DNA of 13,412 nucleotides. Source: Naegleria gruberi. Taxonomy: Eukaryota. Within the stretch, counting starts at the first letter, position 1; each line of letters starts with the position of its first letter. A model generated the notes under the pieces. The model was given only the letters and a program-made list of their open reading frames with translations. It did not search any database and had not been told where the DNA came from. The DNA lies in NCBI GenBank assembly GCA_000004985.1, contig GG738992.1; one strand, 5' to 3'. The translations under genes were made by a program, and so were the position numbers. Positions 261 through 13,412 of the stretch are shown piece after piece.

Positions 261-779
261 ATGCCAATAAAACAAAGGAAGCATTCAAAGCAATGTTCTG
301 TTTGTTCAAAATACGTTCTCAAGGTTTATTTAAAACCGGAAGTCGATTCTTCAACATCAAAAACGAAGAAATATTGTTGCAGTAAATGTAGAGATGAGTT
401 ACGCAATGGTGGCAGTGATGATATTATGGAAGCTGATCAGCATGATGAAGGAGAAGATGGATTACATGGTACTCCAATGGCTTCTCAAATTTCTTCTCAA
501 TACAATACGTCTCAAAATCAGCCAAGCTTTCAGAGTCTAGTATATAATGGAATTTTACCTTCTTTTCAACCATTTCCCTCCAACACTACTGACAAAATTT
601 TCCCAATTCAAACATTTGCAAAATTTAGAATGATTGATTTTACCAATCACAATGATTCAGACCTGTCAAATTGTGGACCAATGTTAGGGATGGATTATAA
701 TCTTAGGAAAGAATTGGATAGAAATTGTCATATGGCTAGAACTATTCAATCCTCAAATAGTCTCATTTCTTATTTATGA
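261..779 (+). CDS. Hypothetical Cys-rich protein with a C-x2-C ... C-x2-C treble-clef-like arrangement. It is possibly one exon of a larger gene together with 796-1164.
   Basis: 172-aa ATG-initiated ORF. The 'CSVCSKY...(23 aa)...CCSKC' motif resembles a zinc-binding pair of Cys dyads. An acidic stretch 'DDIMEADQHDEGEDG' follows. No recognisable family. Confidence 0.3.
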   Translation: MPIKQRKHSKQCSVCSKYVLKVYLKPEVDSSTSKTKKYCCSKCRDELRNGGSDDIMEADQHDEGEDGLHGTPMASQISSQYNTSQNQPSFQSLVYNGILPSFQPFPSNTTDKIFPIQTFAKFRMIDFTNHNDSDLSNCGPMLGMDYNLRKELDRNCHMARTIQSSNSLISYL

Positions 780-795
780 TTCGAAATTCACTATA

Positions 796-1164
796 ATGGA
801 TAAAGTAGCCGCTTATTCATTCCTTACTTCTGCAGGATGTTCAATTTCAAAGGATGTGCATGAATGGTTGAGAGAAAAATTGTATGAGCAATTGAGAAAT
901 TCAATTCAGACCGAAAAAATCAAATCTGAAATCAAAAAATACACAAAAATTAGAAATTGTCAAACCTACACAGTGGTTGAGAATTCAAATGAGGTGAATG
1001 AAATGTCAAAAGAATTTAATCCAAAAGATGTTTCGAATGAAAGAAGTAGAAAAACAAAAAACAAACCAATTATTGAAATTAAAAAGAGTGCTGGTTTACA
1101 ATGTAACAACTGTAATTCCTTCCATATTACACTGGACATGTTTGGTGACGATTCATTCTTGTAA
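796..1164 (+). CDS. Hypothetical protein of unknown function.
   Basis: 122-aa ORF starting 17 bp after the stop of the 261-779 ORF, in a different frame. It is Lys/Glu-rich with a terminal 'CNNCNSF' Cys pair. It could be a second exon or frameshifted continuation of the upstream ORF. Confidence 0.25.
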   Translation: MDKVAAYSFLTSAGCSISKDVHEWLREKLYEQLRNSIQTEKIKSEIKKYTKIRNCQTYTVVENSNEVNEMSKEFNPKDVSNERSRKTKNKPIIEIKKSAGLQCNNCNSFHITLDMFGDDSFL

Positions 1165-4100
1165 CAATAAAAAAAATATCATCACGATGCACCACTCTTT
1201 TCAACATGTTAATTTTACATCATCAAAAATCAATTAATTATTACTATTATAATTGTAGTTTTTTAATTGGAGCAATATATCATGATATAATTAATATTAA
1301 TTATAATATTAAAATTTAAAATATGAAGTTGCGATAATGAAACTAGTTATGAATGTCCGAAATTTAATGGAAATTTTTATAAGGAAAGTATGTAATTATT
1401 GTACTTGTTTTAAAGACTATAGAAATACTAACAATAATATCTGATTTATTACTTTAGACTTTTTAATAATTTACAGTTCAATATCATCTAATCTTGTTGT
1501 TGGTATTTCTAATAATTGTAATTGACACTATCTTTAAATATCAAATAATTATTATGCTCATTTATTTGAGAGAAGATTCATCTTATCACAATTAGAAATG
1601 AATGAAACCACAACTGATAAATTGTATACAATTATCCTTATACAATTTCATATTATCAGTAAGGTAATCAACAAGAGTTGTTTCACTTTAAGAATTGAAT
1701 TATTAATTATGGAGAAAATTTACTTGACGATCAATTGAATAGAACTTGCTATCAAACTCCAAACAAGTACTAACTCATACTAATTTCAGTTTGGCTAGTG
1801 TTCGTCCATTTGATTTATTACATATTAACAGTTTATATTTCATCACGAAGAATTATTGATATCACTTCCTGTTCTTACCACTCCAATTAGTGGAAGAGAT
1901 TAACTTTATTGTAAATTTGGTAAGTATTTATTTGAATGAGTTTACTCAACATTCACAACAAAAAGACTCTAATATTGCTGAAATTGGATTAGAAAACAAG
2001 ATTTAATGTGAGTGTGTCATGTTTGGAATTGGATAAAATCAAAATTCATACCTTGGATGATGATCAATTGTTTAATTCATGATTAAATTTGGATAGTTTA
2101 TTGCTGGAATTATACTCGTGGGTCCTCTTTGGTGAAGAACCTCTTTCTGGGCATGCCAGAGGAGATTCCGTGTTTGATGGATTTGTTTCAGGTATGTTAT
2201 ATTGTTTTAGAATATTATCAACTATAATATGAATGTTAATAATCAAATTGTGGATTGCTTTCTGTGTTGGACTTAATAGAACTCAATAACTGGCAAGTTA
2301 ACTAGATAAGGCTTTACAATCATCAGATTTAAAGAATGCAATATTATATTTGGAAAATTAATTGGAATATTTGATTTTTGACTAATTGAATGAGGCAACA
2401 AAGAGTCTCTATGGAAATTCCACTGGCATTATTATTTTTGAATTAGGATTGTTCATATTTGGAAACAATTACAGAGTAGTGTTTCTGCTGGTGGTGACTC
2501 TTGCCAAGCTGTTTCAAAGATATGATTTAATATTTAGAGAAGGAAATACCGTTATGTGAATGCCTTTTCATTAAGATAGAACAAATGAGTGAGTTACCAA
2601 TTCACTCAAGCTCAAAGATTCACATTCATTTTCATTCAAAAACTCACTCAGTTTGGAAAAGGTACTCAGATTGAAAAGAAAATGATTCATTTGCTTGGTA
2701 GCTCTCAACTAAATTCTTATCCAATGAGAAGAGAGGTTTATCTAACAATCTTGATTCCTTCTTCGATTGGAGAATTGTTTTTTGTTGAGATAAACTGAAG
2801 AATAATCTGGTGAAACTTGCTGGGAAACTTTGAAATCCATTGACAAGGACTGGAGGGGAAAGGAGGTATCAATGGAGTGTTGAATCTACACAGAATAATT
2901 CGATTTGATAATTTTCGTCCATAGCAACTTTTAATGCTCTAAAGTGTGCTCTTCAACTTCAAAGTCACAGTTTCCTCTTCAATGGATGAAACAAGTATGC
3001 AAAGTAAATGGAAGGGTGTATGTTTTCTTTCTTCATTTGCATGAAAGGATTTATGAACGGTTGTCGAAATAAGCGATTAATGGTATAAGTGTTGGATAAT
3101 TTTGCAGATATTATCTGTCCCTTTCAATCAAATATTCATGAACCTTTCTTCTATAATTAATGAAATCTGCTCATTTGAATGGTCCCAACAAATCTGATTT
3201 CGAACCTATCTATACAATCTCTGTAAATCAAGTGCTAACAGTTCAAATGAAAGTAAGGAAGAGAATGTTGGAGGTGGAGATGACGACTGGGAATTTTTCA
3301 ATGTTGAAAAAACGAACCAGTTGAATCTGAATAGCAAGTGAATGAACTAGTCACTAAGAAATTCGTCTTGGACGAAAGTGAATTCGAACTTGATTATTAC
3401 ACAATATTCCATTGCTAATAATGGTCAAACTCTCTTTACAAATATACTCCTCATTCAATAAGATCTTGGAACTGTTGGTAATACTCTCCAATCATATGTA
3501 AGCTCTCAATAACAATACCTTGTATGAGGATTATGAAGCCAAAGTAACAAATTACTCATTTCCAAAATGAAATGACATCACTCTTGAATAAGTTGATTTA
3601 CCTTAAATATTATTCCAGTTTTGGATAAAATATTAATAGCTAATTCACTGATAGTGCCAATTGACATCCACTTTTTAAACCCATTTAGACAGTAGTTGTC
3701 TTTTCACTAAATTATTCAGAACCATCCTATAAGATAATTTTACAAAATGAAATAAGGGAGACAAATCTTACCTGTTATATAATATAATTCAACGATCCAA
3801 AAATTATCTAATTTCTACATCTATCCAAAATTAAAATTAATTCCAATAATTTCAAATTATCCTAAATTCATTCCAAGTACATTAATTGATGAAATAATTC
3901 CACTCCAATTCCATGTCAATCAAGTAATTTCATAATTATCCAATTTTTTCAATTATTATTTCATCCACTTCCAAATAATTATTTACAAATTTGCAAGTCA
4001 GTTCGAAATATTTCAAAACAATATTAATAATTAAGAGAAAATTAAAATTTAATTACTTATCATCCAATAACCAAAATCGAAATTATCGTAACATTTCATT

Positions 4101-4180
4101 GAATGACAAGACATTTCCCAATTAACATATACTCTGTTATCATAGTCATTACAAACCAATGTCATGGCTGTGTACTCACA

Positions 4181-4473
4181 NNNNNNNNNNNNNNNNNNNN
4201 NNNNNNNNNNNNNNNNNNNNNNNNNNNNNNNNNNNNNNNNNNNNNNNNNNNNNNNNNNNNNNNNNNNNNNNNNNNNNNNNNNNNNNNNNNNNNNNNNNNN
4301 NNNNNNNNNNNNNNNNNNNNNNNNNNNNNNNNNNNNNNNNNNNNNNNNNNNNNNNNNNNNNNNNNNNNNNNNNNNNNNNNNNNNNNNNNNNNNNNNNNNN
4401 NNNNNNNNNNNNNNNNNNNNNNNNNNNNNNNNNNNNNNNNNNNNNNNNNNNNNNNNNNNNNNNNNNNNNNNNN
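4181..4473. other. Assembly gap (run of N).
   Basis: 293 consecutive 'n' characters. The six-frame ORFs crossing it (X runs) are artefacts of the gap. Confidence 0.99.
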
Positions 4474-5061
4474 ATATTACTCCTTCTGCTCTTCTTGATT
4501 CCTCTACTTGATACAACCCTCCCCTTCGATACCTTCTCTTTTGGTGTCTTGGTTTTCTTCTCTTGTTGTTGTTCAAAGAATTCACGATCGTAATTGATGA
4601 AGTAGTTAGTACAGTTTTTTCTACTCTTGATTGTTTTGATGGTGGCTGGCATTTGATTGTTTTTTTGTTGTTTGTTTGTGATGAGTAACCAGCAGAGTGA
4701 TATGCTAGGTTCAGTGTTGTTACATTTTTTTTTAAAACATTACAAAGACTACCAAATTGCAGGCCCGCCTCTGTATGGCTGAATTTTTACGGCCTTGGCT
4801 TTTTGTCATTGTAATGGGTAATAAAATAATTTTAAAAAAATCTTCATCATCATCATGCTTATCAAATCATCATAACCCTAGTAGGATCAAACCAACTATT
4901 AATTCGGATAAATGTGTTCAATATATATATTTATAATTTACAATTGGTGGTGATGGAATATAATTAAAGCCAGTGTTCATTCAGGACACTTCATGATGAT
5001 TTTAAATAATCAGCACAGCAACAACTCTTACTCTCCTTCTGATGGATTTTCAGAGAGAGTG

Positions 5062-6189
5062 TTAACTACTACTATCACTGTTCTTTTGCTGGGCTTTCTT
5101 TCTAGTCTGACGATAATTATCAAATCTCTTCTTTTTTACCTTCTGATCCTCAACGGCATCGACAGTAGTAAGCTTGATTGCAGCCACTTCCAATTCCTTC
5201 AAATCATTATTTGAGTATGGAGGTTTTTCTAAATGGAACATCTCCACAAGTTTATCAACAGCCATACCAAATTGACCAATAGTTTTCACTTCTACTTGTT
5301 GTATTGGTGTGAGAGAGTAAGTGTTTCCTCTGAATGTGAAGGAGGTTGCTTTACATACCTCATCTTCATCTTCTACCCAGACTGCTGCTAAAGCTTCCCT
5401 GACCTTTCTCTTCTTTTGTTTAAAATGGAATTCGACTTGAGAAGTTCTCTTTTTGGCCTCTGATTCGGATTTAACTAGCTCCTCATTCAATTTCTTCAAT
5501 GTATCACATTCCAAAACAAGTTGGTCAGTTCTTTGAGCAAGTTCATCACGTTCTTGAACTAATTGGGCTATTCTTTCTTCATACTTTTTTTGCTGAAATT
5601 CAAATGTTGTGGAATGAATCATGTTGTTTGTAGGACCACAACTGGAAAAACTAGGAATAGTTCCTCCCGAAAAACTTGGAATTGAAAAATTAGAAATAAT
5701 TTCAGAACTACTTGCGCTTCCACCAACAACAGCACCACTATATATATTAACATGAGGAGCAGAAGGAAAACTTGAAATGTTACCAAATGGTTGAGTCATT
5801 CTTGATGATGTAGGAAGGGATGACGATGGTGTAAATAATGTTGCCAATGGTGGTTGTGATGGTTGTTGTTGAGATAGATGAGGAATAACATTTTGTGAAA
5901 TGGTTGAAAACACTGTTGGAGGTGAAGGACCAAAAATGTCTGAATTATCAACATGATTATTCTTTGGATCCAATAAGGTTGTCATATTGACAAGTGAACT
6001 AGCCGAAGTTTTATGGAGATCAGCAAAGTCTATGGCTAATTCATTCCATTTCCAATTCAACACGGCACCAACTATAAACTCTGCATTATTGAAAACCAAG
6101 TTAGAGTTTGTCTCCACAGCACTGACAGAGATTTGCATCTGGGTATCATCATTACTTACAAATCCCATGACTTTTCCTACACATAACAT
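5062..6189 (-). CDS. Hypothetical protein of unrecognised family. It has an N-terminal globular segment, a Ser/Pro/Gln-rich low-complexity linker, a central coiled coil and a C-terminal globular domain of about 120 aa.
   Basis: 375-aa ORF from ATG to TAA (stop at 5062-5064). The middle 'KKYEERIAQLVQERDELAQRTDQLVLECDTLKKLNEELVKSESEAKK' is heptad-like coiled coil. The long 'SQQQPSQPPLATLFTPSSSLPTSS' region is low complexity. Amino-acid composition is coding-like and there are no internal stops over 1.1 kb in AT-rich DNA. Confidence 0.55.
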   Translation of the reverse strand: MLCVGKVMGFVSNDDTQMQISVSAVETNSNLVFNNAEFIVGAVLNWKWNELAIDFADLHKTSASSLVNMTTLLDPKNNHVDNSDIFGPSPPTVFSTISQNVIPHLSQQQPSQPPLATLFTPSSSLPTSSRMTQPFGNISSFPSAPHVNIYSGAVVGGSASSSEIISNFSIPSFSGGTIPSFSSCGPTNNMIHSTTFEFQQKKYEERIAQLVQERDELAQRTDQLVLECDTLKKLNEELVKSESEAKKRTSQVEFHFKQKKRKVREALAAVWVEDEDEVCKATSFTFRGNTYSLTPIQQVEVKTIGQFGMAVDKLVEMFHLEKPPYSNNDLKELEVAAIKLTTVDAVEDQKVKKKRFDNYRQTRKKAQQKNSDSSS

Positions 6190-6364
6190 TCATCATAAGG
6201 AACAACAAGTATTACACTAATAGGCCCTTCAGGCTTATTCTTGAGAAGATTATCACTTGTCACAGTATGCTTCTGGATGTAGAGGTAGTTGGATGTTGGA
6301 TCTAACAAGTTTCAACTTTTTCAAGATTAAAGCCTTGTGTGAGAACAGACTTGTGTCACTCATC
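6190..6364. promoter_or_regulatory. Putative shared, bidirectional promoter or 5'UTR region between the divergent genes 5062-6189 (-) and 6257-7558 (+).
   Basis: The two ORFs run head-to-head. The first 36 codons of the + ORF ('MSQYASGCRGSWMLDLTSFNFF...') look non-protein-like, so the real start is probably the Met at about 6365 ('MRLSLTSIQ...'). That leaves about 175 bp between the two start codons. Confidence 0.3.
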
Positions 6365-7558
6365 ATGCGTTTATCATTAACATCCATACAAAGAACCTCA
6401 ACAAACACTACCTTAACAAAGGCTAAGAAGAAGAGACTATTGGAAAGTGGAAGGGAGGATGTTATATTAGAGTTTCTTGCAATGAAGAGACGAAATCGAC
6501 AATTAGCAAAAAGTAATAATAACAGCCTCAATCATCAACAACAACCTCAACAACCTCAACATTCTTTTAATTGCTCTACTCTTGGTTGTCAGTGTCATCA
6601 TCATCAATACGACCCTTATCATCATCATGTACCAAGTCATCAGATTCCTTCTACAGGTCAAGTAGAAACCAATATTAATCATCAAACTATGCACGAATTA
6701 GAATTGGGTGGAATTGATACAGTGATGAGCAATAGTCATCGTGTTGATGATGATGATTATGAAGGATTGGATTTTCTTCAAGCATTGCAAAGTGGACTCT
6801 TAAAGAAGGCTAGAGACTCACTTCTCGAAGATGATAAACCTCTCTTCAAAGGATCAGAGCATACCTTCACAGACATGTCTCTCACTCTAGCCAAATACTT
6901 TGCTGAATCAAAGAGTTCAAAAGCCAATATGAACACTCTAATCACAATCATCAACTCGATCTTTGGACCAATCCTCAACAAGAGAATACCCAAACTAAAA
7001 ACAATCCTCAACAAGATTGAAAATGTAAAGAAGGATTACGAGCAAGTCTATTATTGTGCTAGTCATGAGCAAATCATTCCTAGAGGAGGTGAATGTAGCA
7101 TCTGCAAGGCAAAGATTGGAAAGTCACCTTACTATTGGCATAAGTCCTTCAAATCCTGTATTTCAGAATTGGTGGAAATAACTGGATTAGCCAAATTGAA
7201 AGAGGTTGTAAAAAGACCAAGCTTTCTTTCTCACCCCTCATTAACAACAACAAGAACAACAACATTACATTCAACAATTACATCAAATCAATCTCCACCT
7301 CAATCATTAGCAACAACAACAACAAGAATTGGAAATAGTACCACTACTACTGCTCAACATCTTCAAACAATAGCAGATTGTTGTGATTCAACAGAATACG
7401 AAAGAATTACAGGTAATGGTTGGTGGGATGATAATGCTCTTTGCCTCACACTGAGTGCTGGTACTGATGGTGCATGTGCTACAAAATCAACAAATAAGAG
7501 CATCAATCCTCTCCTTGCTTGGATCAATGAGCTGCCCTTGGAAACTCGATTCTCATAA
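6257..7558 (+). CDS. Hypothetical Gln/His/Thr-rich protein with a basic N-terminal segment and a Cys pair ('CASHEQIIPRGGECSICKAKIG'). The true start is probably internal, near 6365.
   Basis: 433-aa ORF ending in TAA at 7556-7558. It has low-complexity poly-Q/H ('NHQQQPQQPQH', 'CQCHHHQYDPYHHHVP') and poly-T/N tracts ('SLTTTRTTTLHSTITSNQSPPQSLATTTTRIGNSTTTTAQ'). No family recognised. Confidence 0.5.
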   Translation: MSQYASGCRGSWMLDLTSFNFFKIKALCENRLVSLIMRLSLTSIQRTSTNTTLTKAKKKRLLESGREDVILEFLAMKRRNRQLAKSNNNSLNHQQQPQQPQHSFNCSTLGCQCHHHQYDPYHHHVPSHQIPSTGQVETNINHQTMHELELGGIDTVMSNSHRVDDDDYEGLDFLQALQSGLLKKARDSLLEDDKPLFKGSEHTFTDMSLTLAKYFAESKSSKANMNTLITIINSIFGPILNKRIPKLKTILNKIENVKKDYEQVYYCASHEQIIPRGGECSICKAKIGKSPYYWHKSFKSCISELVEITGLAKLKEVVKRPSFLSHPSLTTTRTTTLHSTITSNQSPPQSLATTTTRIGNSTTTTAQHLQTIADCCDSTEYERITGNGWWDDNALCLTLSAGTDGACATKSTNKSINPLLAWINELPLETRFS

Positions 7559-7744
7559 CGGTAAGCTTTCTTCTTGCCTATGCAAACCATTCCATTCCAT
7601 ACAAAGTTCTCTTACACAATTTTATCAGTGAATTAATCTTGCTAGATAGGGGTGTTGAGATGAAGGATCCACATAATAACAACTCTACCTATACTCTAAA
7701 GGTGAGATTGTTTAACATGATTAGATTTAGTCTCCATTCAAGAA

Positions 7745-8170
7745 TTGTTAGAAATTGGACATGCTGGGTGCAATGGTTGTCGGTTCTGTAACCTTCTTGG
7801 TAGAAAGGATAAAGATACAGGTGTTATTTATTCATCCATTAGTGGTTGCAATAGCAGTGGCCAAGGTAACCCAATTACACGAAATTGGGAACAAATGAAA
7901 CCAAATTTTATCAAACTGTACAAGAATGAAATTCCATCCTTTGAAGGAGTTTCGGGTGTTTCCATTCTATTAAGGTTACCCTATTTTAGAGGGACAACAC
8001 AGGTGAGTTGTGATGTATTGCACAATCTCTTGGAAGGAAGGTACTCAATAGAATTGTTGTTCTCTATGATAGACACCTTCCAGATATTAATAGTAAGTTG
8101 CGCTTTCAAATTATTATATTGTTGTAACAATTCAAATTATTATAACACCAACAATATAATTATATCGTGA
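7745..8170 (+). pseudogene. Transposase relic fragment 1, carrying the Cys-rich 'HAGCNGCRFCN' and 'DVLHNLLEG' motifs.
   Basis: 141-aa ORF. A GTAAGT donor-like site at 8093 follows 'FQILI'. The downstream sequence reads as AT-rich intron-like DNA. Confidence 0.35.
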
Positions 8171-8234
8171 AATTATTATAATATTAATAACAATTAATAA
8201 CAACAACAATAATTCCATTATATAATATATTAAC

Positions 8235-8621
8235 ATGACATTCACACAAATTATGTATGTTTTAATATCAACTTTTCATTCTTTTCCAAAAGAAAACCTC
8301 TTATCTATCAATACTCCTTCCATGTATCACAGACAAGTGAGAGATTTGAGTAATTTGGCTCACTATAAAGCCATTGAGTTTTACATGATATTTGCCTATT
8401 GTACATCAGCTTTTCAAGGAATTTTGAGTCAAGCCCATTATTCAATCATGGTTGGAATTAAAGATCTCATCTCTACCATTATGAATCCCTTCCCAAAGGA
8501 CAATACTCGAATCAAATTGTTCGACTATGAAGTTAGCACTCTACTTCAAAATGTTGAAAAGGAGTTTGGCTCTAATTGTTGTACATTGGCTACACATTCG
8601 GTAAAACATTTTCCAGAGTAA
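8235..8621 (+). pseudogene. Transposase relic fragment 2.
   Basis: 128-aa ORF. Its coding-like portion starts after the AG at 8291-8292 or 8331-8332. It ends at 'HFPE' immediately before 'gtaagttgtaacaatttag'. It lies between two fragments with transposase-like motifs. Confidence 0.3.
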
Positions 8622-8981: not shown

Positions 8982-9064
8982 TGAATAATGTAAAATACAT
9001 GATTATGGGAAAGTAAGTTTGTTTTGTTTTAATTACATATTTAATTTATTCGAATATAAATTTT

Positions 9065-9100
9065 CAATTCAATCAATCAATTCAATTCAATCAATTCAAT
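9065..9100. repeat. Simple-sequence repeat (CAATT/CAATCAATT)n.
   Basis: The sequence is 'caattcaatcaatcaattcaattcaatcaattcaat', seen directly. Confidence 0.8.
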
Positions 9101-9155
9101 AATGATGAAATGCAAATCATTGAATCTAACTTTTATAAATATTTTGGCAATAATA

Positions 9156-10208
9156 TCATTTTCTTTCAAAAAAACCTTTGTAATCGGCAGCCATTTTGTT
9201 TAACTGCTTCCAATACAATTCTCTATCTTTTCTTAATGATTCATCAGCATATTCAAGTGCACGTCTATTTTGTTTAACTGCTTCCAATACAAATTCTTTA
9301 TCTTTTCTTAATGATTCATCAGCATATTTAAGTGCACATCCAGTTTGTTTAACTGCTTCCAATATAATTTCTTTATCTTTTCTTAATGATTCATCAACAT
9401 ATTTAAGTGCACATCCATTTTGTTTAATTGCTTCCAATACAATTTCTCTATCTTTTCTTAATAATTCATCAGCATATTCAAGTGCACATCCAGTTTGTTT
9501 AACTGCTTCCAATATAATTTCTTTATCTTTTCTTAATGATTCATCAGCATCTTCAAGTGCAAAGCCATTTTGTTTAACTGCTTCCAATACAATTTCTCTA
9601 TCTTTTCTTAATAATTCATCAGCATATTCAAGTGCAAAGCCATATTGTTTAATTGCTTCCAATACAATTTCTCTATCTTTTCTTAATGAGTTATCAGCAT
9701 ATTCAAGTGCACGTCCATTTTGTTTAACTGCTTCCAATACAATTTCTCTATCTTTTCTTAATAATTCATCAGCATATTCAAGTGCAAAGCCATTTTGTTT
9801 AACTGCTTCCAATACAAATTCTTTATCTTTTCTTAATGAGTTATCAGCATATGCAAGTGCACGTCCATTTTGTTTAATTGCTTCCAATACAATTTCTCTA
9901 TCTTTTCTTAATGAGTTATCAGCATCTTCAAGTGCACGTCCATTTTGTTTAACTGCTTCCAATACAAATTCTTTATCTTTTCTTAATGAGTTATCAGCAT
10001 ATTCAAGTGCACATCCATTTTGTTTAACTGCTTCCAATACAAACTCTCTATCTTTTCTTAATAATTCATCAGCATCTTCAAGTGCACTAATATTTTGTTT
10101 GATAACTGCCAATACAATTTGTCTATCTTGTTTTAAATATTTTGGCTTGTCTTTTTCTTTCAAAAATGCCTTTGTAATCGGCCAGCCATTTTGTTTAACT
10201 GCTTCCAA
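9156..10208 (-). CDS. Kinase locus segment 4. It has a non-repeat linker 'WPITKAFLKEKDKPKYLKQDRQIVLAVIKQNISALEDADELL', about 12 repeats, and the tail 'ELYWKQLNKMAADYKGFFERK'.
   Basis: 350-aa ORF. It is in frame with segment 3 if a single T is restored in 'caatacaattctct' near 10212. Confidence 0.5.
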   Translation of the reverse strand: MEAVKQNGWPITKAFLKEKDKPKYLKQDRQIVLAVIKQNISALEDADELLRKDREFVLEAVKQNGCALEYADNSLRKDKEFVLEAVKQNGRALEDADNSLRKDREIVLEAIKQNGRALAYADNSLRKDKEFVLEAVKQNGFALEYADELLRKDREIVLEAVKQNGRALEYADNSLRKDREIVLEAIKQYGFALEYADELLRKDREIVLEAVKQNGFALEDADESLRKDKEIILEAVKQTGCALEYADELLRKDREIVLEAIKQNGCALKYVDESLRKDKEIILEAVKQTGCALKYADESLRKDKEFVLEAVKQNRRALEYADESLRKDRELYWKQLNKMAADYKGFFERK

Positions 10209-12826
10209 TACAATTCTCTATCTTTTCTTAATGATTCATCAGCATATTCAAGTGCACGTCTATTTTGTTTAACTGCTTCCAATACAATTTCTTTATCTTT
10301 TCTTAATGATTCATCAGCATCTTCAAGTGCACATCCATTTTGTTTAACTGCTTCCAATACAAATTCTCTATCTTTTCTTAATGATTCATCAGCATCTTCA
10401 AGTGCACGTCTATTTTGTTTAATTGCTTCCAATACAATTTCTCTATCTTTTCTTAATGATTCATCAGCATCTTCAAGTGCACGTCTATTTTGTTTAACTG
10501 CTTCCAATACAATTTCTTTATCTTTTCTTAATGATTCATCAGCATATTTAAATGCAAAGCCAGTTTGTTTAACTGCTTCCAATACAAATTCTCTATCTTT
10601 TCTTAATGATTCATCAACATATTTAAGTGCAAAGCCATTTTGTTTAATTGCTTCCAATACAAATTCTCTATCTTTTCTTAATGATTCATCAGCATCTTCA
10701 AGTGCACGTCTATTTTGTTTAACTGCTTCCAATACAATTTCTTTATCTTTTCTTAATGATTCATCAACATATTTAAGTGCAAAGCCATTTTGTTTAACTG
10801 CTTCCAATACAAATTGTTTATCTTTTCTTAATGATTCATCAGCATATTTAAATGCAAAGCCATTTTGTTTAACTGCTTCCAATACAATTTCTCTATCTTT
10901 TCTTAATGATTCATCAACATATTTAAATGCAAAGCCATTTTGTTTAACTGCTTCCAATACAAATTCTCTATTTTTTCTTAATGATTCATCAACATATTCA
11001 AGTGCACGTCCATTTTGTTTAACTGCTTCCAATACAATTTCTCTATCTTTTCTTAATGATTCATCAGTATATTTAAGTGCACGCCAATTTGTTTAACTGC
11101 TTCCAATACAATTTCTCTATCTTTTCTTAATGATTCATCAGCATCTTTAAGTGCACAGCCATTTTGTTTAACTGCTTCCAATACAATTTCTCTATCTTTT
11201 CTTAATGATTCATCAGCATCTTCAAGTGCACATCCATTTTGTTTAACTGCTTCCAATACAATTTCTCTATCTTTTCTTAATGATTCATCAACATATTTAA
11301 GTGCAAAGCCATTTTGTTTAACTGCTTCCAATACAAATTCTCTATCTTTTCTTAATGATTCATCAACATATTTAAGTGCAAAGCCATATTGTTTAATTGC
11401 TTCCAATACAATTTCTCTATCTTTTCTTAATGATTCATCAGCATATCCAAGTGCAAAGCCATATTGTTTAATTGCTTCCAATACAATTTCTCTATCTTTT
11501 CTTAATGATTCATCAGCATATTCAAGTGCACGTCCATTTTGTTTAATTGCTTCCAATACAATTTCTCTATCTTTTCTTAATGATTTATCAGCATATTTAA
11601 ATGCCAAGCCATCTTGTTTAACTGCTTCCAATACAACTTCTCTATTATCCTTTGATAGTAGATGCAACGAAACCCCTTGTAATACACAAAGTAACTGTAT
11701 ACAACGATTTTTACGAAATCGGTAGAGTGTATGTATTTGGTGTGGTATTGTGATTGGTCCTGATAAATGTATATCAAAAATGGCCTCCAATATTCTGTTA
11801 GCAGAAAACCTTTTCTCCAATGATTCATCTAACATGCCTCTAAGTATTAATAATAATTCTCTCCATACGGTCACATCTTTCTCCAGATTTCCCCTTTCTA
11901 TTAATTCTAAAATATTATTGTCATCTAACAAGTCTATTTTTTGAATATCTTCTTGCAATTTCATTAGCACTTCAGCATGAGACTGTGTTTCATCTATTTT
12001 TCTAGCAAACAACAGCCACAGCATGGCTCTTCCCAAACTCCAGACATCACTTAATACACATTGTTCTCCTTTAAAACATTCTGGTGCAATATAACCACAT
12101 GTTCCGTGATGTGTTAAGTATGTGTCTGCAGTATCAGGAGTAGAAAATATATTAGTAGATGAATAAATTGGCTGACTTTTTGATGAAACAGTTCTGGCTA
12201 TTCCCAAATCACCCAATGCAGCATCAATGACATCAAATGAATAAATGGTTGGTTCAAAGCTAATAAAGATGTTTGCAGGTTTGATATCACTATGAATTAT
12301 ATTATGCTTATGCTCATGGAGTCGACATAATGCATTAGCAATTCTAATTAAAATTTGAAGCGCTTCACACAAGAACAATTTTCCTGATTTGTTCTTTCCA
12401 TATTTTTTCATATCCATTCCTCTATATTCTGATACAAGTACAATTTCTTCACCAATTAGTTCCGAAACCTCATAAGTTACCACTAGAATCGAACAACTTT
12501 TTCACAGTTGCAGCAAATCTCCATTCTCCTACTTGATAACCATCTGAATAAGTACCATTCAGATCATTACTTGGAAATATTCCATCAATTAGTTTAACAA
12601 TTTTAACAACGTATTCATATCCATCATCACCCAAACATTTACAAACCAAAGTATCACTTTTTGGATTTTCGAACACTTCTTGAAATTCAAATGATCGTCC
12701 TTTGATGCGAAATTGTTTCAATCGTATGATGGAAGTTATAAGATTTGGTGTGGTTTCTTCAACTTGAACTTGATCTATTTGTCCACCATCTCCAAAATCA
12801 CTAACTCGTTTCTGTGGTGCAAGCAT
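9156..12826 (-). CDS. Protein kinase with an N-terminal catalytic domain, fused to a C-terminal array of about 33 tandem 25-aa DUF4116-like repeats. The frame is interrupted by four single-base indels, so this is a possible pseudogene or an error-containing assembly.
   Basis: Read 5'->3' on the minus strand, the N-lobe ORF (12826->12470) has a Gly-loop-like 'FGDGGQ' and a beta-3 lysine in 'YEYVVKIVK'. The next ORF (12483->11053) has the hinge 'LVSEY', catalytic loop 'HSDIKPANIF' (12286-12294), 'DLG' (about 12208-12216), 'GTCGYIAPE' and 'DVWSLG'. It then runs into repeats of the form 'SLRKDREIVLEAVKQNGxALEYADE'. ORFs 11032->10160 and 10208->9156 continue the same repeats and end in 'RELYWKQLNKMA...', which is a -1-frame reading of a repeat unit. 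The ATG at 12824-12826 is the likely start. Confidence 0.7.
9200..11680. repeat. Tandem array of about 33 copies of a 75-bp unit. It encodes the 25-aa repeats on the minus strand, and copies are near-identical at the nucleotide level.
   Basis: The string 'ttaactgcttccaatac' recurs at an exact 75-bp period (for example 9275, 9350...). The + strand consensus is 'ttgtttaactgcttccaatacaatttctctatcttttcttaatgattcatcagcatattcaagtgcacgtccatt'. Variation is confined to a few positions. Confidence 0.92.
10160..11032 (-). CDS. Kinase locus segment 3, about 11 DUF4116-like repeats ending in the frameshift-derived tail 'ELYWKQLNKMAGRLQRHF'.
   Basis: 290-aa ORF composed entirely of 25-aa repeats. It is separated from segment 2 by a 1-bp deletion ('gcacgccaatttg' versus consensus 'gcacgtccattttg') near 11085. 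Confidence 0.55.
   Translation of the reverse strand: MEAVKQNGRALEYVDESLRKNREFVLEAVKQNGFAFKYVDESLRKDREIVLEAVKQNGFAFKYADESLRKDKQFVLEAVKQNGFALKYVDESLRKDKEIVLEAVKQNRRALEDADESLRKDREFVLEAIKQNGFALKYVDESLRKDREFVLEAVKQTGFAFKYADESLRKDKEIVLEAVKQNRRALEDADESLRKDREIVLEAIKQNRRALEDADESLRKDREFVLEAVKQNGCALEDADESLRKDKEIVLEAVKQNRRALEYADESLRKDRELYWKQLNKMAGRLQRHF
11053..12483 (-). CDS. Kinase locus segment 2, covering the kinase C-lobe (subdomains V-XI) plus the first 8 or so DUF4116-like repeats.
   Basis: 476-aa ORF whose track start is GTG, not ATG. It contains the motifs HSD, DLG, APE and DxWSLG, then the repeats. Confidence 0.6.
   Translation of the reverse strand: MVTYEVSELIGEEIVLVSEYRGMDMKKYGKNKSGKLFLCEALQILIRIANALCRLHEHKHNIIHSDIKPANIFISFEPTIYSFDVIDAALGDLGIARTVSSKSQPIYSSTNIFSTPDTADTYLTHHGTCGYIAPECFKGEQCVLSDVWSLGRAMLWLLFARKIDETQSHAEVLMKLQEDIQKIDLLDDNNILELIERGNLEKDVTVWRELLLILRGMLDESLEKRFSANRILEAIFDIHLSGPITIPHQIHTLYRFRKNRCIQLLCVLQGVSLHLLSKDNREVVLEAVKQDGLAFKYADKSLRKDREIVLEAIKQNGRALEYADESLRKDREIVLEAIKQYGFALGYADESLRKDREIVLEAIKQYGFALKYVDESLRKDREFVLEAVKQNGFALKYVDESLRKDREIVLEAVKQNGCALEDADESLRKDREIVLEAVKQNGCALKDADESLRKDREIVLEAVKQIGVHLNILMNH
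12470..12826 (-). CDS. Kinase locus segment 1, covering the kinase N-lobe (subdomains I-IV).
   Basis: 118-aa ATG-initiated ORF with 'RVSDFGDGGQIDQV' (Gly-rich loop variant) and 'GYEYVVKIVKL' (VAIK-like, with Lys). It ends at a TGA that overlaps the next segment by a +1 shift. Confidence 0.55.
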   Translation of the reverse strand: MLAPQKRVSDFGDGGQIDQVQVEETTPNLITSIIRLKQFRIKGRSFEFQEVFENPKSDTLVCKCLGDDGYEYVVKIVKLIDGIFPSNDLNGTYSDGYQVGEWRFAATVKKLFDSSGNL

Positions 12827-12924: not shown

Positions 12925-13412
12925 TAATACTAAAGGATGGTAGCAATCCTATCAATGATAACAATTACTGTTCGTTGTTCCACAACACCACTAACACCAC
13001 TAACACCATTCCGAAATAATTCTACATATGAATATGATAATACGCTTTAATTTTGTTATTTTTTTCATAAAATCGTAATTTACAGTTTTCATCACATATT
13101 TTAATTATTTATTATTTTATAAAAAATACCTCTTTTTCAAAAATATGATGAGACCAACCACAGCAACACAACTACACGGAACATCATGCACAACATCACC
13201 AAACCTTACATTTATTGTAAGAAGATTATGATGAGAGTTCACTGGTGAGAGTCCATATGTGATTACTCGACACTCTAGGTTTAAACATTTTTGAATCTAT
13301 TCGTGAAAATCATAATAATTGTTGTAGGATTGTTGTTTCAAGAGTTGTTGTTGTTGTTGATATTGTTAACAAAAATTACCAACAACAAAATACTCCACCA
13401 ACCATCAAGAGT

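What the first reader, a model, noticed from the sequence alone, without database searches (positions are those of the whole stretch)
9125..10225. Internal ~1-kb segmental duplication that carries a copy of the gene's own 3' end, including the same 1-bp frameshift
The block at about 10128-10225 is a near-copy of the locus terminus at about 9125-9230. At 10128-10225 the + strand reads 'tttaaatattttggcttgtctttttctttcaaaaatgcctttgtaatcggccagccattttgtttaactgcttccaatacaattctctatc'. At 9125-9230 it reads 'tttataaatattttggcaataatatcattttctttcaaaaaaacctttgtaatcggcagccattttgtttaactgcttccaatacaattctctatc'. Both copies have 'caatacaattctct' where every other unit has 'caatacaatttctct'. This -1 shift turns the last repeat into the tail 'RELYWKQLNKMA...' and then a stop. 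Two things follow. First, the indel predates the duplication, so it is a real allele, not a random sequencing error. Second, the ancestral gene probably terminated at about 10160 with this frameshift-derived C-terminus. A duplication of the repeats plus 3' end then created either an extended gene, via the readable linker 'WPITKAFLKEKDKPKYLKQDRQIVLAVIKQNISALEDADELL', or a promoterless partial duplicate.
Basis: seen in the sequence. Interest (0 to 1): 0.55.

Follow-up and report, generated by a model that had tools for sequence, protein, structure and literature searches.

The report
Broken repeat gene with duplicated tail
A Naegleria-type kinase gene with a long run of 25-residue repeats holds a second, diverged copy of its own 3' end in the middle of that run; this is ordinary repeat-array recombination, probably in a decaying gene copy, and not a new kind of element.

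Summary
The sequence observation holds. On the minus strand lies a gene for a protein kinase followed by 32 tandem 75-nt units (DUF4116 half-repeats). Its closest relative is Naegleria gruberi NAEGRDRAFT_62160.

What is confirmed:
- The array's 3' junction (9103-9292) recurs at 10100-10287.
- Within it, 105 nt are identical and carry the same 1-nt deletion.
- The next ~85 nt of non-repeat tail are 84% identical with indels (alignment score about 15 SD above shuffles).

What is not confirmed:
- The "1 kb" between the copies is no more similar at that register than at any other.
- Unit 20b is a hybrid: a tail-like 5' part and a canonical 3' part. This is what an unequal crossover between a degenerate terminal unit and an internal unit would leave.
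- A perfect tract beside a diverged tail points to recent gene conversion, so the deletion need not predate the duplication.

The kinase reading frame therefore never reaches 10160.

My best reading is a recently decaying, unannotated paralogue shaped by array recombination. Consensus errors cannot be excluded. Interest is low.

The parts
12482..12826 (-). N-terminal coding segment (ATG at 12826), 115 codons, ~95% identical to residues 1-115 of N. gruberi XP_002682207.1. In the window its frame runs into a stop after ...FDSSGNL.
12481..12485 (-). Frame break of -2 nt relative to the homologue. The window has TCTAGTGGTAACT where FDSS|VVTYEV needs TCTAGTGTGGTAACT. The two tblastn HSPs overlap by 2 nt, in different frames.
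   Evidence: the deletion is inferred from the protein comparison
11650..12483 (-). Protein kinase domain (Pfam Pkinase, 70.5 bits). Motifs HSDIKPAN, DLG and APE. Followed by a short linker to the repeat array.
9191..11645 (-). Tandem array of 75-nt units (25 aa, LEAVKQNGxALEYADESLRKDREIV), which are DUF4116 half-repeats. 32 anchors; units 1-19, linker 20a, hybrid 20b, units 21-31, and the start of unit 32.
   Evidence: predicted all-helical repeat structure with pLDDT ~90 in the canonical units
11033..11106 (-). Unit 8, 74 nt. 1-nt deletion near 11082 (GGC-GTGCA) plus two private substitutions. It shifts the frame so that the kinase ORF stops at 11053-11055.
10183..10287 (-). Internal copy of the 105-nt tract identical to 9188-9292. 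It covers the end of unit 18, all of unit 19 (10209-10282, 74 nt) and the start of unit 20. The 1-nt deletion is in GAGAATTGTA (plus-strand AATT at 10212-10215).
10113..10208 (-). Unit 20a, the 'linker' or internal tail copy, 96 nt. In the repeat frame it reads LEAVKQNGWPITKAFLKEKDKPKYLKQDRQIV, a degenerate DUF4116 unit with 7 extra residues. In the shifted frame it gives ...KMAGRLQRHF and the stop TGA at 10160-10162.
10038..10112 (-). Unit 20b, a hybrid unit. The first ~27 nt are diverged (LAVIKQNIS; loss of the GAA codon and gain of ATC, shared with the terminal flank TTTGCATTTCATCA). The last 48 nt are canonical. Inferred crossover junction.
   Evidence: (9-19 differences from every other unit)
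9188..9292 (-). Terminal copy of the 105-nt identical tract. It covers the end of unit 30, all of unit 31 (9214-9287, 74 nt) and the start of unit 32. Same deletion (plus-strand AATT at 9217-9220).
9103..9187 (-). Terminal tail, homologous to 10100-10182 (84% of aligned bases, 7 gap columns). The shifted frame stops at TGA 9156-9158. The TGA homologous to the internal stop is at 9166-9168 and would be the stop if unit 31 were not shifted (…NGCRLQRFF*).
9045..9100 (-). 3' flank: a (TTCAA)n / 9-mer microsatellite at 9063-9100 and an AATAAA hexamer (gene sense) at 9045-9050. Homology with the internal copy ends at the microsatellite.
   Evidence: the hexamer is a pattern match only

Best explanation
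The locus is a close paralogue (or the orthologue in a close strain) of the Naegleria gruberi kinase-DUF4116 gene NAEGRDRAFT_62160. It encodes an N-terminal segment, a protein kinase domain and about 32 tandem 25-residue DUF4116 half-repeats predicted to form an alpha-solenoid.

Proposed history (inferred):
1. The array once ended in a degenerate unit (the 20a type, with a 7-residue insertion) followed by a still more degenerate unit.
2. An unequal, non-allelic homologous crossover occurred between that last degenerate unit and a canonical unit further up the array. This tandemly duplicated about 995 nt (roughly 12 canonical units plus the tail module).
3. The result is an internal copy of the 3' end (10100-10208) and a hybrid junction unit (20b).
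4. Later unit-level duplication and gene conversion erased the unit-by-unit correspondence inside the duplicate.
5. A recent conversion made the unit next to each tail identical over 105 nt, so both carry the same 1-nt deletion.

Present state (shown): the reading frame is interrupted at four places (-2 at 12482, -1 near 11082, -1 at 10212-10215, -1 at 9217-9220). As it stands, the locus cannot make the full protein. It is most likely a young pseudogene, and the 'frameshift-derived C-terminus' is a by-product, not a functional feature.

Shown: the homology, the identical tract, the hybrid make-up of unit 20b and the frame breaks.
Inferred: the crossover mechanism, the order of events and pseudogene status.
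For: - Architecture and family: Pfam Pkinase at 70.5 bits and DUF4116 at 291-778 bits in the three ORFs. The best hit, P0001 (XP_002682207.1, N. gruberi), is 94.8% identical over residues 1-115 and 88% over the kinase N-lobe. N. gruberi paralogues P0033-P0035 share the kinase plus DUF4116 architecture.
- Junction homology: (105 identical nt; tail 84% identical; score 40 versus 12.4 +/- 1.8 for shuffles).
- Hybrid unit 20b: 9-19 differences from all other units, concentrated in its first 27 nt. Its GAA loss and ATC gain are shared with the terminal flank.
- Unit 31 is of the NRRAL type, which is otherwise confined to units 13, 16, 17 and 19. It is therefore foreign to its own block.
- Ongoing homogenisation: seven unit pairs differ by 1 nt, and a 103-nt exact match exists at offset 225. 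Variation among units is limited to about a dozen recurrent positions.
- Frame breaks.
- There is no annotated protein identical to any ORF of this gene, and no second strong hit for its kinase domain.
Against: - Only two copies of the tail exist, and no orthologous locus could be retrieved. The direction and order of events therefore cannot be polarised.
- The interior of the proposed duplicate shows no excess similarity, so the 995-nt tandem duplication rests on the two ends and the hybrid unit alone.
- The units downstream of each frame break show no stop codons and no excess of private mutations. If this is a pseudogene, it is very young. The same pattern is expected if some of the indels are consensus errors in a hard-to-assemble array; the window comes from a scaffold with a 293-N gap.
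- Three of the four breaks are single-base losses.
Confidence: 0.55

Rival explanations
1. Assembly or consensus artefact. The gene is intact in the organism, and some or all of the four small deletions are errors of a draft assembly in a 2.4-kb array of ~91%-identical 75-nt units. The identical 105-nt tract would reflect reads of one junction contributing to the consensus of both.
For: The window comes from a gapped scaffold (293 N at 4181-4473). Four frame breaks fall within 3.7 kb, while the repeats show no stops and no neutral decay. Unit 8 combines a deletion with two private substitutions, as a low-quality stretch would.
Against: The two tails differ at 13 aligned positions and several indels, so the two junctions are distinct loci and not one locus assembled twice. 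The context GATAGAGAA(A/T)TTGTATTGG is read with full length in the other units, so a context-driven systematic error is unlikely. The 12482 break is a 2-nt loss, not a homopolymer slip.
Confidence: 0.17
2. The -1 deletion arose first and gave the ancestral gene a frameshift-derived C-terminus ending near 10160. The repeats plus this end were then duplicated, and the gene still functions up to 10160.
For: Both copies carry the deletion and stop within 17-20 codons of it. The internal stop TGA 10160-10162 is homologous to a TGA in the terminal tail.
Against: The kinase ORF stops at 11053, upstream of 10160, and is shifted at 12482. The tail peptides differ after KMA because of the G indel. The 105/105 identity next to an 84% tail argues that the deletion-bearing tract is much younger than the duplication. 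No homologue has such a tail.
Confidence: 0.1
3. The internal linker is the ancestral, in-frame part of a long array: a diverged unit, as seen in the paralogues. The terminal tail would then be the derived copy, produced by duplicating the unit 19-20a-20b region to the end or by truncating a longer array. The deletion is a later lesion copied by conversion.
For: The linker is exactly 57 codons with unit 20b and is open in the repeat frame. It keeps the L-K-x-D-R-x-I-V motif. N. gruberi paralogues P0034 and P0035 have irregular internal linkers between DUF4116 units. The terminal copy in the same frame is degenerate.
Against: It needs an extra truncation step. Openness of 32 AT-rich codons is weak evidence. 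The linker peptide has no homologue. AlphaFold gives low confidence (pLDDT 48-68) for the linker, against ~90 for the canonical units.
Confidence: 0.12
4. The frame is rescued in the mRNA. GT...AG intervals 10211..10123 (89 nt) and 9216..9126 (91 nt) would be spliced out as introns. This would give ...KDRELQIVLAVIKQN... in frame, and a C-terminus ...KDRELFNDLHFIIIELIELN*.
For: Both intervals begin with GTATTG, end with AG, and restore an open frame (hand translation for the 89-nt case). Naegleria genes do contain spliceosomal introns (own knowledge of the 2010 N. gruberi genome paper, not checked here).
Against: The same GTATTGG and GATAG strings occur in every unit of the array, so nothing marks these two as splice sites. 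One in three arbitrary GT/AG pairs would restore the frame. No such interval repairs unit 8 or the 12482 shift.
Confidence: 0.05

Closest known systems
Naegleria gruberi NAEGRDRAFT_62160 (XP_002682207.1 / D2V040, 'predicted protein', 475 aa)
   Same: N-terminal 115 residues are 94.8% identical and the kinase N-lobe is 88% identical. Same HSD / DLG / APE motifs, followed by DUF4116 half-repeats of the same 25-residue consensus.
   Different: It is a distinct sequence, with real substitutions throughout. The annotated model has only ~9 repeats and skips the kinase C-lobe. It has no frame break at FDSS|VVTYEV. Its C-terminus (…EAVVNAETQKL) is unrelated to either tail. Its genomic DNA could not be retrieved.
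N. gruberi kinase-DUF4116 paralogues NAEGRDRAFT_53795 (850 aa), _75119 (691 aa), _68631 (404 aa)
   Same: Same domain order (kinase, then a DUF4116 array). 37-39% identity over the whole kinase domain. Their arrays contain irregular linker segments.
   Different: Their repeats are strongly diverged from one another (old arrays). The window's units are ~91% identical at the DNA level (a young, homogenised array). No shared linker or tail sequence.
Pfam PF13475 (DUF4116), predicted alpha-solenoid repeat
   Same: Every unit pair matches the 49-residue model end to end. The single-sequence AlphaFold model is an all-helical repeat with pLDDT ~90, and its nearest PDB folds are designed helical repeats and HEAT/ARM-type solenoids, at low TM-scores. 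A published contact-based model also gives an alpha-solenoid (PMC8078820).
   Different: No function is known for the family, so the comparison covers fold and sequence only.
Concerted evolution of tandem coding repeats by unequal crossing-over and gene conversion (general mechanism, own knowledge)
   Same: Block-specific variants, near-identical neighbouring units, long exact tracts at several offsets, and a hybrid junction unit.
   Different: Here one exchange involved the degenerate end of the array. A copy of the 3' end, with its stop codon, was therefore carried into the array interior.

Membership tests
DUF4116 repeat proteins (PF13475) | Match to the Pfam HMM above the gathering score (24.9 bits) | tested here: met
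   291.5, 692.3 and 778.3 bits for the three ORFs, with 4-12 full-length matches each.
DUF4116 repeat proteins (PF13475) | Helical repeat (solenoid) fold | tested here: met
   AlphaFold2 single-sequence model: mean pLDDT 83.7, regular helix pattern per 25 residues. Foldseek hits only generic helical-repeat proteins with low TM-scores.
Eukaryotic protein kinases (PF00069) | HMM match above the gathering score, and catalytic motifs | tested here: met
   70.5 bits against a 31.7 cut-off. HSDIKPAN, DLG and APE are present. HRD-Arg and DFG-Phe are replaced, as in P0001.
Eukaryotic protein kinases (PF00069) | Uninterrupted reading frame through both lobes | tested here: not met
   The N-terminal segment with the VVKIVK strand is in a different frame from the rest (-2 nt at 12482) relative to P0001.
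N. gruberi kinase-DUF4116 paralogue family | Kinase domain homologous over its full length, followed by a DUF4116 array | tested here: met
   P0001 at E=1.8e-77. P0033-35 at E=1e-28 to 1e-40 over query residues 2-272. All are N. gruberi proteins with DUF4116 repeats.
Unprocessed pseudogene | Frame-disrupting lesions relative to the closest intact homologue or the gene's own repeat frame | tested here: met
   Four lesions: 12482 (-2), ~11082 (-1), 10212-10215 (-1), 9217-9220 (-1).
Unprocessed pseudogene | Lesions are real (not consensus errors), and no functional product is made | not testable with these tools
   No reads, no transcriptome and no second assembly were available. Look-ups and collection scans found nothing.
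Tandem segmental duplication by unequal crossover | Two direct copies of a unique junction, with a hybrid unit at the breakpoint | tested here: met
   Tails 10100-10182 and 9103-9188 are homologous (z about 15). Unit 20b is tail-like in its 5' part and canonical in its 3' part.
Tandem segmental duplication by unequal crossover | Excess similarity along the whole duplicated segment at the duplication register | tested here: not met
   Register 12 gives a mean of 6.1-6.5 differences per unit, against 5.5-7.8 at other registers. This is explicable by later homogenisation but was not shown.
Programmed ribosomal frameshift site | Slippery heptamer X XXY YYZ at the shift site, and a consistent direction at all breaks | tested here: not met
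   The site AGAGAATTGTATTGG has no slippery heptamer. The other breaks differ in sequence and size (-2 at 12482).
Spliceosomal intron bypassing the shift | GT...AG interval that restores the frame, with signals specific to that interval, and spliced transcripts | tested here: inconclusive
   GT/AG intervals of 89 and 91 nt restore the frame, but the same strings occur in all units. Transcripts are not available.

The most novel reading that the evidence does not exclude
The unit carrying the 1-nt deletion, together with the adjoining degenerate tail, is not a lesion but a recently 'intronised' piece of a coding repeat. On this reading, the GT...AG intervals 10211..10123 and 9216..9126 are spliced out. 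The internal copy then joins two sub-arrays in frame, and the terminal copy supplies a short C-terminal exon. This would be a case of intron birth from coding tandem repeats, then duplicated within one gene.
Probability: 0.04. Interest if true: 0.5.

Novelty: new member of a known kind. Interest (0 to 1): 0.12.

Why it matters
It matters little beyond annotation.
- The three long minus-strand ORFs at 9156-12483 are pieces of one kinase-DUF4116 gene copy that is broken in four places. They should not be called as separate genes or as a gene with an unusual C-terminus.
- The locus is a tidy small example of how a crossover involving the degenerate end of a coding repeat array can carry a stop-bearing 3' end into the array. 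It also shows how later gene conversion can make a lesion look older than it is.
- If the indels proved to be assembly errors, the locus would instead be one of the longest and most homogeneous DUF4116 arrays attached to a kinase in Naegleria. That could help anyone studying what this uncharacterised repeat does.

Tried and rejected
- Exact-protein look-ups to fetch the source or homologous DNA found nothing on record: P0001, two window ORFs and P0034.
- Two metagenome scans, one with a tail pattern and one with a canonical-unit pattern, gave 0 matches.
- A protein search with the linker plus the repaired terminal tail returned only generic DUF4116 hits at 40-60% identity on the repeat part. 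Local alignment of the four possible tail or linker peptides against all 181 fetched proteins gave noise only.
- A concatenated neighbour-ORF search, meant to pin down the source genome and test for indel errors in other genes, gave no hit at E<=1e-3. Pfam found nothing for those ORFs either.
- The bacterial promoter/terminator scan is irrelevant for a eukaryote and showed nothing above shuffles.
- Literature searches for Naegleria splice-site consensus or genome statistics gave nothing usable.
- I rejected programmed frameshifting: there is no slippery site, and the breaks are heterogeneous.
- I rejected haplotype-merging duplication: the tails are 16% divergent with indels, and the internal tail runs straight into canonical repeats.
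- I rejected the plus-strand ORFs 9196-10272 and 10191-11096. They are open only because a stop-free unit is repeated.

Full report
**What is in the window**

The window is AT-rich (GC about 0.26-0.38) and contains a 293-N scaffold gap at 4181-4473.

On the minus strand, from an ATG at 12826, lies a gene whose pieces appear as four consecutive ORFs in different frames: 12470-12826, 11053-12483, 10160-11032 and 9156-10208. Pfam finds a protein kinase domain (70.5 bits) and very strong DUF4116 matches (291-778 bits).

The best database relative is Naegleria gruberi XP_002682207.1 (NAEGRDRAFT_62160). It is 94.8% identical over the first 115 residues and 88% over the kinase N-lobe. The next relatives are three more N. 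gruberi kinase-DUF4116 proteins at 37-39% identity. The window is therefore Naegleria DNA. The gene is a close paralogue of NAEGRDRAFT_62160, or its orthologue in a closely related strain. No annotated protein corresponds to it.

**The repeat array**

Tandem Repeats Finder reports a 75-nt period over 9191-11645. Anchoring on TTGGAAGCAGTTAAACAA gives 32 units.

- 28 of the 31 spacings between anchors are exactly 75 nt.
- Three spacings are 74 nt: unit 8, unit 19 and unit 31.
- Unit 20 is 171 nt. It consists of a 96-nt 'linker' (20a) followed by a 75-nt diverged unit (20b).

Each unit encodes LEAVKQNGxALEYADESLRKDREIV. Differences between units sit at about a dozen recurrent positions and are almost all non-synonymous. 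There are no in-frame stops in any block.

A single-sequence AlphaFold model of ORF 9156-10208 is a regular helical repeat: pLDDT ~90 in canonical units, 48-68 in the linker, 56-64 in the frameshifted tail. Foldseek finds only generic helical-repeat proteins. This agrees with a published alpha-solenoid prediction for DUF4116 (PMC8078820).

**Checking the observation**

The two junctions are homologous well beyond the repeat.

- 9188-9292 equals 10183-10287 base for base (105 nt). This is the longest exact repeat in the array.
- The tract includes the only two occurrences of CAATACAATTCTCT.
- Units 19 and 31 are the only identical pair.
- Downstream in gene sense, 10182-10100 aligns with 9188-9103 at 68/81 identical bases with 7 gap columns. 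The score is 40, against 12.4 +/- 1.8 for shuffles.

Three details need correction.

- About a third of the units have the Phe variant instead of 'caatttc'.
- The tails differ by a 1-nt indel immediately after the repeat, so the two shifted tail peptides differ after KMA.
- The stretch between the two junctions shows no excess identity at the 12-unit register. That register gives a mean of 6.1-6.5 differences per unit, against 5.5-7.8 at other registers.

What is demonstrably duplicated is therefore about 190 nt, not 1 kb.

- Unit 8 also lacks one base (GGC-GTGCA, near 11082). The ORF that contains the kinase domain therefore ends at 11053, not at 10160.
- Where the homologue reads FDSS|VVTYEV, the window lacks two bases (TCTAGTGGTAACT). 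This puts the N-terminal 115 codons in another frame from the rest of the kinase.
- The gene thus has four frame breaks in 3.7 kb.

**How the structure most likely arose (inferred)**

Unit 20b is a hybrid.

- Its first ~27 nt are strongly diverged. They share two derived states with the terminal flank TTTGCATTTCATCA: loss of the GAA codon and presence of ATC.
- Its last 48 nt are canonical.

This is the product expected from an unequal homologous crossover between a degenerate last unit lying after the tail and a canonical internal unit. Such a crossover would duplicate about 995 nt in tandem and place a copy of the 3' end inside the array.

The array clearly continues to exchange sequence.

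- Seven unit pairs differ by one base.
- There is a 103-nt exact match at offset 225.
- Variants are block-specific: DNSL and DELL only in units 20b-28, and NRRAL in units 13, 16, 17 and 19.
- Unit 31 is of the NRRAL type, so it is foreign to its block.

Together with 105/105 identity next to a tail that is only 84% identical, this says the deletion-bearing tract is much younger than the tail duplication. At 16% divergence, 105 matches in a row would have a probability of about 1e-8 (my arithmetic). The simplest reading is a recent gene conversion between the two tail-adjacent units. The shared deletion is therefore one event present twice, but it need not predate the duplication.

**Reading-frame bookkeeping**

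- With the deletion, the internal copy stops at TGA 10160-10162 (…KMAGRLQRHF*) and the terminal copy at TGA 9156-9158 (…KMAADYKGFFERK*).
- Without the deletion, the internal copy reads through in frame (57 codons for 20a plus 20b). The terminal copy stops at 9166-9168 (…NGCRLQRFF*), and this TGA is homologous to the internal stop.
- Two copies do not allow the ancestral state to be decided.
- None of these peptides has any detectable homologue. The N. gruberi paralogues end shortly after a last repeat with no conserved tail.

**Rivals**

- (a) Consensus errors in a hard-to-assemble array. The lack of any decay in the repeats downstream of the breaks fits this as well as it fits a very young pseudogene. 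However, the two junctions are distinct sequences, and the same context is read at full length in the other units.
The upstream breaks contradict it.
- (c) The linker is ancestral and in frame, and the terminal copy is derived. This is possible, since the paralogues have irregular internal linkers, but it needs an extra step.
- (d) GT...AG intervals of 89 and 91 nt that would restore the frame. The same strings occur in every unit, and they cannot repair the other two breaks.
- Programmed frameshifting is rejected: there is no slippery site, and the lesions are heterogeneous.

**Verdict**

Biologically it is an ordinary outcome of unequal exchange and gene conversion in a young coding tandem array, in what is most likely an unannotated, recently disabled paralogue of a known N. 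gruberi kinase-DUF4116 family. It is a new member of a known kind, of low interest. The decisive data would be reads, transcripts and orthologous loci, and none could be obtained here.

Noticed in passing
window 11033-11106 (unit 8), stop at 11053-11055: A third 74-nt unit with a different 1-nt deletion (GGC-GTGCA) and two private substitutions. It ends the kinase-containing ORF about 0.9 kb upstream of the point the finding treats as the ancestral stop.
   Followed up: yes
window 12481-12485: A 2-nt shortfall (AGTGGTA instead of AGTGTGGTA) relative to the 95%-identical N. gruberi homologue. It separates the N-terminal 115 codons from the rest of the kinase domain.
   Followed up: yes
window 4181-4473: A run of 293 N (scaffold gap of estimated size), so the window comes from a gapped draft assembly. 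The low GC value in the 4001-4500 composition bin is caused by it.
   Followed up: partly
window 9191-11645: Differences between repeat units are almost all non-synonymous (107 non-synonymous against 14 synonymous codon differences from the consensus). They are confined to about 12 recurrent positions (V/I, N/Y/T, G/R, R/F/C, L/F, E/K, Y/D, A/V, E/N, S/L, R/K, I/F). This looks like a fixed scaffold with a few variable surface positions shuffled among units.
   Followed up: partly
window 10439-10541 vs 10664-10766: A 103-nt exact repeat at an offset of 225 nt (three units). TRF also reports a 225-nt period, but unit-level autocorrelation shows only a weak three-unit periodicity.
   Followed up: partly
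window 9063-9100 and 12980-13008: Short microsatellites flank the gene: (TTCAA)n / 9-mer just past the 3' tail, and (CCACTAACA)3 upstream of the ATG. The 3' one lies exactly where homology between the two tail copies ends.
   Followed up: no
window 12270-12300 and 12205-12215 (minus strand): The kinase has HSD instead of HRD and DLG instead of DFG, as does XP_002682207.1. The more distant N. gruberi paralogue P0033 has HRD and DFG. This may be a non-RD or weakly active kinase lineage.
   Followed up: no
window 5062-6189 (-), 6257-7558 (+), 7745-8170 (+), 8235-8621 (+), 261-1164 (+): Several long ORFs next to the kinase gene have no Pfam family and no homologue at E<=1e-3 in a 5.8-billion-protein search. 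Those at 6257-8621 lie head to tail in three different frames, so they may be one interrupted or intron-containing gene.
   Followed up: partly
P0001 (XP_002682207.1), residues 255-270 and 350-365: The annotated N. gruberi homologue jumps from ...ECFKGEQC straight to LLSAVKKNG, skipping the whole kinase C-lobe present in the window. It also contains a truncated unit (EIVLELLRKDREIV). Its gene model or locus may itself be defective.
   Followed up: no
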